Shown here: piece after piece, positions 4,162-7,683 of the stretch
Numbering within the stretch: the stretch's first letter is position 1
How the letters are laid out: every line of letters starts with the position of its first letter
Assembly (NCBI GenBank): GCA_964016885.1
Contig: OZ024761.1
Location: 27,342,001-27,406,000 of the forward strand
Length of the DNA stretch: 64,000 nucleotides
Origin: Eledone cirrhosa
Lineage: Eukaryota
Direction of reading: 5' to 3'
Notes under the pieces: model-generated
Database searches by the model: none
Told to the model about the DNA's origin: nothing
What the model saw: the letters and a program-made list of their open reading frames with translations, nothing else
Translations under genes and position numbers: made by a program

Positions 4162-4235
4162 CAGATTAAAGTTTAAGCAAAGAATCGCTGCTTTCACCCT
4201 TAACGGGATCTTCTGAAACTAACAAAGTCAATCTG
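4162..4235 (-). ncRNA. Hammerhead-like motif, family A (CAGAAGA core)
   Basis: Minus strand: CAGATTGA-ctttgtt-AGTTT CAGAAGA tCCCgttaaGGGt GAAA GCA-gcgattctt-TGC TT AAACT-TTAATCTG. All three stems pair, but core position 4 is A rather than U. Confidence 0.6.
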
Positions 4236-6702
4236 TAAACGCAGAACGTTGAATAAAGAAGTACAGCTGTACCAAGAAGACACAAAATAGTCATGGCGGC
4301 ATACACAAAAGCAGGCTGAAACTTTTGAATTATCTCCCTTGTTCTTTGTGACTCAACAACAAATGCTATTAGATTCTTTTTTTGTTTTCTTTCTCCAACT
4401 AAGAGGAACATTGCTATTCAGCAAGAAACTTTAGCGCCGCATGCTACCCATTTCATTCATTAATACTTTTATGTTTGATAGAATCAATGATGAATAAATA
4501 GAATTGAAACTACACAAAGTGGACAATCTCCCACCAAACCTTCCTCTCACCAACGCCAACACCGACACCGACGGTGCCATTGTCGCCGCTATCACTACTA
4601 CAAACGCCACTACCATCATCATCATCACCAATAACAACAATCACAGCCAAATAAGTAATAACGTCGGTGGTGCCAATTTTTGGTCAATACTCAATCACAC
4701 GGTTACAATGGAACAGATACCAACGTTATATGTATATATATATATGTGTATATATATGTGTATATACATACATATATGCATACATACATACATACATAAA
4801 ATACATACATACACACATATATATATATATATATATATATATATATATATATATATATACATACATACATGTTATATATATATATATTTATATATGTATA
4901 TATATATATATATATATATATATATATAAATATATGTACATATATATATATATATATATATATATATATATATATATATATATGTATATATATATATATA
5001 TTTATATATGTATATATATATATATATTTATATATGTATATATATATATATATATATTTATATATGTATATATATATATATATATATATATATGTATATA
5101 TATATATATATATATATATATATATATATATATATATATATATATATATATATATTTATATATGTATATAGATATATATATATATTTATATATGTATATA
5201 TATATATATATATATTTATATATGTATATATATATATATATATATATATATATATATATGTATATATATATATATATATATATATATATATATATATATA
5301 TATATATATATATATATATACTCTCGAAAAATAACATCCTGTCTTCATAATCATTCACACACGCATGTATCCATGTATATATGTATGTATGTATACATAC
5401 ACTCACACAAACACACACATATATATATATATATATATATATATATGCATATACACGTAGACACATATATGCATATACATATGCATATACACATAGACAC
5501 ACACATATATACATACATACACGCACACACACACACACACACACACACACACACACACACACACACACACACACACACACACACACACACACACACACAC
5601 ACACACACATATATATACGTAAAATCAGAACCGCTGACCGACTGACACGACGAATTACCGAATGAGAGAATGAATAATGAATAAATGAATGAAAGATTAA
5701 TAGAATACAATAAAAACCACAAAACAAAACAGGAATTAGTTAATGTTATGTAAATAAGTTCTACGCCATTAAACTTATTCCATTGACTTCTCTAGTTTAT
5801 TTTAGTTTAGTTTATTTTATTTTATTATATTTTCTTCTTATCGTCTGCTTTACACATATCTTTACTTTCTTCTCTATTTTCGACTCCATTTTTATAAAGA
5901 CTTCTCCCTTTATTTGCTTATTGTCTGTTGTGTTATTTCTTGGAATTTCTTCTCGTCCCTGATAATTATTTTGCTTCATGGTATATACACCCCCCGACTC
6001 CCCTCCCCCTCCTGACCTATCCATTCTTCTTCTTCTGCTTCTTCTTCTTCTTCTTCTTCTTCTTCTTCTTCTTCTTCTTCTTCTTCTTCTTCTTCTTCTT
6101 CTCATTATTGTTTCGTGTATATATATATATATACATATACACACACATATATATATATATCAGAATTCAATAAGCTGAAGGATTATTATCATTATTATTA
6201 TTTATATATTTATATATCTGCGGTCATTTCAACGCATATATATATATATATATATATATATATATATATATATATATATATATATATATATATATATTTA
6301 TATATATATATATATATATATATATATATATATATATATATATATATATATATATATATATATATATGCATATATATATATATATGCATATATATATATA
6401 TATATGCATATATATATATATATATATATATATATATATATATATATATATATGCATATATATATATATATATATATATATATATATATATATATATATA
6501 TATGCATATATATATATGCATATATATATATATGCATATATATATATGCATATATATATATATATATATATATATATATATGCATATATATATATATATA
6601 TATATATATATATATATGCATATATATATATATGCATATATATATATATGCATATATATATATATGCATATATATATATATATATATATATATATATATA
6701 TG

Positions 6703-7683
6703 TTTATTAAAATAACAGATTAAAGTTTAGGCAAAGAATCGCTGCTTTCACCGTTAACGGGATCTTCTGAAACTAAACAAGCCAATCTGTGAACGCAGAA
6801 GTAAATATTAAAAAAAAACGTTGAAACCGGAGGAAGACGATACTTTGGTTCGTGGAAACGTTCCCTGGCAAAGAACGGAAAAAAACGAAGATAATGCGTC
6901 ATTATTTGGAGCGGTGAAAAACAATTACACGCAAAGATAAAACCACGTTTATGGTATAAATGAAGTCGTAGACTAATATTCTATTCGGTGGTTCATCGAG
7001 ACGTTCTCTGGCATTGAACGGAAAAAACGAAGAAAATACGTCATATGTGGAGCGGCGAGAACAATTGCAAGCAAAGACAAAACCACGTAAATGGTATAAC
7101 TGAAGTCGTAGACTAAAATTCTAACTAGGAAACCGAATGATTCTCGGCTTCAGAGTTAAGAGTAAAGTAAATAAAATACAGAAGTAATTGAAATTAAATA
7201 AATACATACACGCATCCATATACGTACATACACAAGCATACGCGAAAACACCCGCCATAGGTATACAAATACAAACCCGCACGCACATACATAACCCGCG
7301 CAACACCTGTACCCGCGCACATACGAACGTATACACCAAATACACATAAAAATATATATATAAAAAAAATATATATGTGTGTGTGTGTGTGCGTGTATAC
7401 ATATAATTAAAAAAAACGTATATAACTAAATAAATACGTTTCCACGAACCAAAGTATCGTCTTCCTATCTTCCTCCGGTTGCAACGTTTTTTGAAATATA
7501 TACTTCTGCGTTCACAGATTGACTTTTTTAGTTTCAGAAGATCCCGTTAAGGGTGAAAGCAGTGATTCTTTGCCTAAACTTTAATCTGTTATTTTAATAA
7601 ATATTTGCTCTACGGTTCTTATATATTTGATATATATGTATCCTTATCGAGCCCTCTTTGGATTTTAGTCTTCAAATTTATTA
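6703..7683 (+). mobile_element. Non-coding PLE-like element, family A: inverted arm + body + direct arm + tail
   Basis: Inverted repeats 6703-6860 and 7437-7601, unique tail 7602-7683, (TA)n on both sides. Internal ~143 bp direct duplication at 6859-6983 and 7002-7123. HHR-like motifs at 6716-6789 (-) and 7515-7588 (+). Confidence 0.75.

What the first reader, a model, noticed from the sequence alone, without database searches (positions are those of the whole stretch)
4162..7588. Family A hammerhead-like fold with a CAGAAGA core (U4A) and a full stem III
Seen: three copies (4162-, 6716-, 7515+) all have CAGAAGA in place of CUGANGA, a U-U opposition at the base of stem II, GAAA, a GCA/UGC stem III and a bipartite stem I (AGTTT/AAACT plus an 8 bp distal helix around a 7 nt bulge). 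The 4162 copy and the partial 38432 copy keep U16.1 (CUU site), while 6716 and 7515 have C there. Inference: because the A is shared by separate insertions it is a family trait, not decay. It may be a natural core variant that standard descriptors miss, or a non-cleaving derivative kept as an RT-recognition structure.
Basis: partly seen in the sequence, partly recalled or inferred. Interest (0 to 1): 0.75.

Follow-up and report, generated by a model that had tools for sequence, protein, structure and literature searches.

The report
Penelope hammerhead keeps fold despite U4A
These repeats are end-pieces of a jumping gene with about 28,000 copies whose hammerhead-ribozyme motif has A instead of the usual U in its catalytic core in 99% of copies and in older subfamilies; its predicted stems stayed unchanged while its loops drifted, so it likely persists as a folded but slow or silent ribozyme on RNA that is likely copied uncut.

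Summary
Observation confirmed. The copies are ends of a Hydra-clade Penelope-like retrotransposon (about 28,000 motif copies; 708-aa RT plus GIY-YIG ORF). The motif is its pLTR type I hammerhead. A4 is a family trait: 16,088 of 16,237 copies, 80 of 80 picked by the ORF, 34 of 34 and 39 of 43 in two other subfamilies, no other letter in 8 other organisms' contigs. The U·U pair and U17 are normal for Hydra hammerheads. C16.1 is decay: 6716 and 7515 are two arms of one insertion. Between an old and the young subfamily, 0 of 40 paired or cut-site positions changed against 8 of 22 loop, bulge and N7 positions (p about 1e-4), so the fold looks selected; no compensatory pairs were seen. About 2,000 copies start at the first base of stem I, mostly with an extra G, and about 290 at the predicted cut: the template was likely capped and uncut. 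A canonical-U4 family also starts that way. Cleavage is untested; published mutagenesis predicts low activity. This scan noted the same family earlier on other DNA of this genome. New variant of a known kind.

The parts
4150..4246 (-). 5'-truncated 3'-end copy of the element, ending at the first of two 3' ends, next to an (AT)n run
   Evidence: 99% to the pLTR of full copy L055; sequence
4162..4235 (-). Type I hammerhead-like motif, identical to the copy in L056; likely transcription start at 4220, C3 4215, A4 4214, U16.1 4176, predicted cut between 4175 and 4174
6704..7269 (-). Left arm of a head-to-head two-armed insertion: 3' UTR and pLTR; probably runs on to about 7400
   Evidence: 87% to L055 over 582 nt
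6716..6789 (-). Motif copy with A4 (6768), C16.1 (6730) and a broken closing pair of stem II (6753): decayed
7436..7684 (+). Right arm of the same insertion, with the ~85-nt optional tail (about 7604-7684), then (TA)n
   Evidence: 94-95% to L055 pLTR plus tail; two 3' ends
7515..7588 (+). Motif copy: likely transcription start at 7530, A4 7536, C16.1 7574, predicted cut between 7575 and 7576
38433..38568 (.). Short two-armed stub: partial motif on - (38433-38495, lacks core 3-6, keeps U16.1) joined to the tail on + (38494-38568)
58830..58920 (.).

Best explanation
The motif is the pLTR type I hammerhead of a Hydra-clade Penelope-like retrotransposon, with A fixed at core position 4 in three subfamilies, and it likely survives as a selected RNA fold with slow or no self-cleavage on a likely capped RNA that is likely reverse transcribed uncut. 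Shown: family, position, fixation of A4, unchanged stems with drifting loops, two 3' ends about 28 and 113 nt past the predicted cut, a 5' end hot spot at the first base of stem I with an extra G. Inferred: (1) the pLTR promoter starts a capped RNA at that base; (2) in tandem copies this RNA is the mRNA (ATG 202 nt downstream), so cutting at nt 46 would remove the cap, and cutting at the 3' copy would separate the element from its RT start sites; weak cleavage therefore costs little; (3) the three-way junction is kept because the element's protein binds it or because residual, protein-assisted cleavage still matters.
For: ORF with RWR, DKT, CxCX5C, CxxC, CxH motifs and (TA)n targets as defined for Hydra. 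Motif ~950 nt after the stop and ~195 nt before the ATG. A4 in 16,088 of 16,237, 80 of 80 ORF-picked copies, 34 of 34 old and 39 of 43 middle subfamily copies. Old versus young majority: 0 of 52 stem and core positions, 8 of 22 free positions, N7 the only core change; 0 of 40 versus 8 of 22 without the positions fixed by my search pattern, p 9.5e-5. 2,210 copies with a non-native letter before the first A of stem I, 28 of 30 checked are true junctions, G in 53 of 100 against 26 expected; 108 at the predicted cut against 45 at a control site. Single and double mutants of CUGA other than the C3-G8 swap had low activity in one type III hammerhead (PMC9901934). Hammerhead mutants did not affect insertion by a Poseidon element in vitro (PMC11167929).
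Against: No cleavage or probing data. No compensatory base-pair change was seen, so unchanged stems could also reflect sequence-level constraint. The old-young contrast is one evolutionary path, and most core positions were fixed by the patterns that found the old subfamily. Shared variants thin out towards the 3' end generally, and the tail is fairly conserved too. A family with canonical U4 has the same capped-looking start and runs through its cut site, so uncut templates do not single out A4. A sublineage of 206 copies has stem II broken, though most sampled copies share downstream flanks like passengers in a composite repeat. Junctions at the cut are about twice the single control site after correction (287 versus 147).
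Confidence: 0.55

Rival explanations
1. Active natural core variant: A4 is tolerated in this context (U-U at 10.1-11.1, G15.2-C16.2, loop II to stem I contact, or help from the element's protein), and the ribozyme cuts at a useful rate.
For: N7 is the only core position that differs between subfamilies and U16.1 and U17 are unchanged. Stem III closes a 9-nt loop, so a monomer can fold. A natural U4C variant supports viroid infectivity (PMC3088659), and a C4 core recurs in this genome. The PAc hammerhead cuts only with its protein.
Against: Low activity of CUGA mutants. No pile-up of copy starts at the cut comparable with the stem I start. Core conservation is partly built into my search.
Confidence: 0.22
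2. Dead relic: U4A killed the ribozyme once, and the sequence persists because it overlaps the core promoter (initiator at stem I) and lies beside the RT start sites.
For: The likely start and an initiator-like hexamer lie in stem I. Penelope has an internal Inr/DPE promoter (PMC2377424). 3'-ward drop in variation. The stem-II-broken sublineage spread to 206 copies. No compensatory pairs.
Against: Both strands of the distal helix (-15 to -8 and +52 to +59 from the start) are unchanged while the bulge between them (3 of 7) and the bases just after (4 of 14) changed; a DNA-level promoter does not predict this pairing pattern.
Confidence: 0.17
3. A4 was fixed because it creates a CAG 3' splice site behind a pyrimidine run, so that splicing removes the 5' part of the ribozyme.
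For: The sequence shows a pyrimidine run followed by CAG at C3-A4-G5. In D. virilis Penelope an intron ends at helix I (PMC4209133).
Against: Only 2 of 123 copies begin at the base after this AG, and neither shares an upstream exon. No RNA data.
Confidence: 0.05
4. Chance resemblance to a hammerhead.
For: Rfam found no hammerhead match; the fold is not the predicted minimum-energy structure.
Against: 0 of 100,000 shuffles; same place as canonical hammerheads in related elements; paired-versus-loop conservation.
Confidence: 0.01

Closest known systems
Hydra-clade Penelope-like elements and their hammerheads (Craig et al. 2021, PMC8557442; passages, section 11, supplement part 2 of 59 and term searches)
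   Same: RWK-like, DKT and CxCX5C motifs, C-terminal GIY-YIG, (TA)n targets, type I hammerhead near the 3' end; U-U at 10.1-11.1 in 14 of 26 listed Hydra rows and U17 in 10 of 26.
   Different: All 26 rows have U4 and C15.2, with stem III loops of 1-3 nt; this family has A4, G15.2-C16.2 and a 9-nt loop. Four motif terms of this family had no match in their supplement; Hydra-1_Obim is another family.
PAc, Poseidon element of Anolis carolinensis (Frangieh et al. 2024, PMC11167929; passages and part 2 of 4)
   Same: Two RT start sites downstream of the hammerhead giving an optional tail; uncut RNA is the main template; AT-rich targets.
   Different: PAc has a canonical core that cuts with protein help, a ~34-nt tail and an ORF that overlaps the ribozyme; here the tail is ~85 nt, the ATG is 202 nt from the likely start, and position 4 is A.
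Minimal hammerheads of metazoan PLEs (Cervera and De la Pena 2014, PMC4209133; parts 1-2 of 4)
   Same: Type I motif in the pLTR, low activity in vitro, a family-wide core variant (U3-A8) known.
   Different: Those lack a real helix III and act as dimers; their core variant is compensatory, U4A is not.
Natural hammerhead core variants (Perreault et al. 2011, PMC3088659; passages)
   Same: U10.1-U11.1 tolerated; a position-4 variant (U4C) works in a viroid.
   Different: The term U4A does not occur in its main text; those variants are rare, this one is fixed in about 28,000 copies.

Membership tests
Type I hammerhead ribozyme | Three helices around a core, cut site flanked by an open stem I | tested here: met
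   Pairings present in sequence; predicted mean pair probability about 0.6 but not the minimum-energy fold
Type I hammerhead ribozyme | Core C3 U4 G5 A6 N7 G8 A9 | tested here: not met
   A at position 4 in 99.1%; the other positions fit
Type I hammerhead ribozyme | G12 A13 A14, A15.1-U16.1, H17 | tested here: met
   U16.1 in 23,770 of 23,951; U17 in 78 of 79; not met in window copies 6716 and 7515
Type I hammerhead ribozyme | Helices supported by covariation | tested here: inconclusive
   0 of 38 paired positions changed between subfamilies, so no compensatory change; loops changed
Type I hammerhead ribozyme | Site-specific self-cleavage | not testable with these tools
   Needs an in vitro assay; copy starts show no strong peak at the cut
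Hydra-clade Penelope-like element | Single ORF with RT and C-terminal GIY-YIG; RWK, DKT, CxCX5C, CxxC and CxH motifs | tested here: met
   Read from the translation of L055 and L056 against the description and the alignment blocks; RWK reads RWR. Pfam gave no hit for the protein itself
Hydra-clade Penelope-like element | pLTR tandem and inverted structure, optional tail, (TA)n targets | tested here: met
Hydra-clade Penelope-like element | Placement inside the clade on an RT tree | not tested
   No tree was built with the published Hydra proteins
Hydra-clade Penelope-like element | Canonical hammerhead near the 3' end | tested here: not met
   Motif present at the expected place but with A4
Non-LTR retrozyme | Non-coding tandem units each with a hammerhead | tested here: not met
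   Copies are dispersed ends of a coding element

The most novel reading that the evidence does not exclude
A4 is a working natural hammerhead core, perhaps needing the element's own protein, held by selection through several subfamilies and species; or the element has turned its ribozyme into a non-cutting protein-binding fold at the capped start of its RNA. Either way hammerhead searches that demand CUGA miss whole high-copy families.
Probability: 0.3. Interest if true: 0.72.

Novelty: new variant of a known kind. Interest (0 to 1): 0.5.

Why it matters
What hammerheads do for Penelope-like elements is an open question (cutting, protein handle, or passenger). Here a very successful family fixed a change at a core position that mutagenesis marks as important, yet kept the stems. 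That gives a natural pair, A4 versus A4U, to separate folding from cutting in one assay, with a canonical-U4 family in the same genome as control. If it cuts, it adds a core variant that current descriptors exclude.

Tried and rejected
Neptune clade: my first reading; dropped after the Hydra motifs matched. C16.1 as a subfamily trait: rejected. A U4 sister lineage with the same stems: not seen; 158 matches, and the 30 inspected look like single-copy changes or junction products. A second A4 hammerhead family: a repeated A4-like hit (8 loci fetched) has no hammerhead stems; of the 22 motif clusters with 2 or more copies in 679 kb of loci only this family's 2 had A4. Contig breaks at L056 3435 and 3459 in other organisms' runs lie at GATC and GANTC sites and look like library junctions, not cleavage (inference). 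Rfam: no hammerhead match on 261 nt; the whole-window scan listed only its best 150 of 596 hits, none a hammerhead. Pfam: no hit on the ORF. No RNA holder listed. The first alignment of old copies was on the wrong strand and was redone; two window copies were off by one base in the fold test and only the L056 and 7515 rows count. Flank counts for the middle subfamily are unreliable because most copies are truncated at stem I. Cut-site junctions of the canonical-U4 family were not counted, so the comparison of cutting between U4 and A4 families stays open. Lunse et al. (PLE hammerhead variants) was not held and could list U4A; the supplements of PMC9901934 were listed, not read, so no number for U4A activity is given.

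Full report
Observation. Each reads as a type I hammerhead: 8-bp distal helix, 7-nt bulge, 5-bp stem I, core with A at position 4, U-U, 3-bp stem II, GAAA, 3-bp stem III with a 9-nt loop. None of 100,000 shuffles of the 74-mer met a relaxed descriptor. Against it: no Rfam hammerhead match, and the fold lies about 4 kcal/mol above the predicted minimum. 6716 and 7515 are the two arms of one insertion, which explains their shared C16.1. Two more stubs lie at 38433 and 58884.

The element. The genome is 3.0 Gb and rich in (AT)n; an octopus-type cephalopod is my inference. [quoted passage not shown] Its RWR, DKT, CxCX5C, CxxC and CxH motifs and (TA)n targets fit the Hydra clade as described by Craig et al.; I took the lead to check Hydra from earlier scan notes and tested it by motif, not by tree. 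The motif sits about 950 nt after the stop and, in tandem copies, about 195 nt before the ATG. Young copies are a median 2.9% from their majority. Database relatives are 39-57% identical; a metagenome relative at 40% has a canonical U4 hammerhead 250 nt after its ORF (4 of 7 loci reach it).

Is A4 fixed? Yes. With position 4 free, 16,237 matches; 149 are not A, spread over G, T and C. With stem II free, 28,044 A4 against 158 U4 under slightly different patterns. Of 90 copies picked by the ORF end, 89 had the anchor, 81 aligned and 80 covered the site: all A. Contigs of 8 runs from 8 other organisms cover the site and list no other letter; depth is low and these runs were found by near-identical words. 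U16.1 is fixed too: 23,770 against 181. In the published Hydra table all 26 rows have U4, 14 have U-U and 10 have U17, so A4 is the odd feature, along with G15.2-C16.2 and the larger loop III.

Is the fold selected? An older subfamily (30 best of 40 scored matches; median 8.4% from its own majority) has A4 in 30 of 30, and 34 of 34 when positions 3, 4 and 7 are left free. Its majority differs from the young one at 0 of 52 stem and core positions and 8 of 22 free positions (bulge 3, loop II 2, loop III 2, N7), plus two 1-nt insertions in unpaired places; flanks differ at 39 of 107, 4 of 14 and 11 of 65. Leaving out positions fixed by the pattern that led me there, 0 of 40 against 8 of 22, p 9.5e-5. 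A third subfamily with a 6-nt loop II has A4 in 39 of 43. Among 77 young copies, shared variants fall at 67 of 913 UTR positions and 0 of 74 motif positions, but they thin out towards the 3' end anyway. Limits: one evolutionary path, no compensatory pair, core largely ascertained, and a 206-copy sublineage with stem II broken, mostly with shared downstream flanks.

Is the RNA cut? Copy ends say mostly not. 3' ends cluster about 28 nt (about 43 of 81) and 113 nt (32 of 81) past the predicted cut, like the two RT start sites of PAc. 5' ends pile up at the first base of stem I: 2,210 matches with a non-native letter before it, 28 of 30 checked true junctions, G in 53 of 100 where 26 are expected; two-armed junctions often show the extra base on both arms. 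An extra G as the mark of a copied cap is established knowledge from other retroelements, recalled, not tested here. In 123 copies not selected on this site, 30 begin within 7 nt of it, many at a short palindrome centred on A4. At the predicted cut there are 108 matches, against 45 at one control site; corrected, about 290 and 150, versus 2,000-3,000 at the start. A canonical-U4 family shows the same start (1,370 matches, G in 80 of 100 by my count), so copying of uncut RNA is not special to A4. Earlier scan notes report such starts in other genomes; I saw them, and they are not independent evidence.

Mechanism. Shown: position, fixation, conservation pattern, copy ends. Inferred: a capped RNA starts at stem I; cutting at nt 46 would decap the mRNA, and cutting at the 3' copy would part the element from its RT start sites, so weak cutting costs little. 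Literature: all single and double CUGA mutants but the C3-G8 swap had low activity in one hammerhead (PMC9901934, passages); U4C lowers activity yet supports a viroid (PMC3088659, passages); PAc ribozyme mutants insert normally and the ribozyme needs protein to cut. I therefore favour a selected fold with slow or no cleavage (0.55) over an active variant (0.22) or a relic shielded by promoter and RT sites (0.17).

Novelty. Hammerheads in Penelope-like pLTRs are known. A family-wide U4A was not found in nine library searches, in the main text of two variant papers or in the Craig supplement; Lunse et al. was not available, and Li et al. 2026 was read only in part 1 of 5. Weinberg 2019 and Schostak 2008 were seen as passages. 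This scan had noted the same family twice on other DNA of this genome. What this report adds is the subfamily contrast and the map of copy starts. Verdict: new variant of a known kind, interest 0.5.

Noticed in passing
window 14845-16590 (+); L128-L157: A second young Hydra-like element (150 scored matches at 96-100% aa) whose canonical-U4 hammerhead has a stem II region of about 90 nt.
   Followed up: partly
window 13126-14796 (-): Remnant ORF of a third Hydra-like family, head to head with the one at 14845.
   Followed up: no
window 31919 (+); L083:2787: Hammerhead-like motif with C at position 4, in several related copies: a possible U4C family.
   Followed up: no
L018:2645, L051:4991, L096:588: Three motif clusters with the compensatory U3-A8 core, 8, 4 and 4 copies in the loci scanned.
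   Followed up: no
window 45275 (-); L278-L302: Canonical-U4 hammerhead family (7,859 exact matches) with U-U, a 3-bp stem III and 8-nt loop, two 3' ends and a start at stem I with extra G; a natural control for the A4 family. Its ORF was not identified.
   Followed up: partly
L417-L446: 206-copy sublineage with two stem II pairs broken; many copies share one of two downstream flanks, like passengers in a composite mobile repeat.
   Followed up: partly
L313 (G000:C1:53356000-53365900): Tandem array of ~425-nt hammerhead units, retrozyme-like; 4 of 18 listed units carry U4A, spread within the array.
   Followed up: no
L093, L096, L111, L149: Two-armed copies often join at a 7-nt near-palindrome centred on position 4, where A and T swap between strands; template switching there could be how U4A arose (speculative).
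   Followed up: no
window 19440-21714 (+): ORFs that look like RT/RNase H and integrase of a Gypsy-type LTR retrotransposon, by eye from the translation.
   Followed up: no
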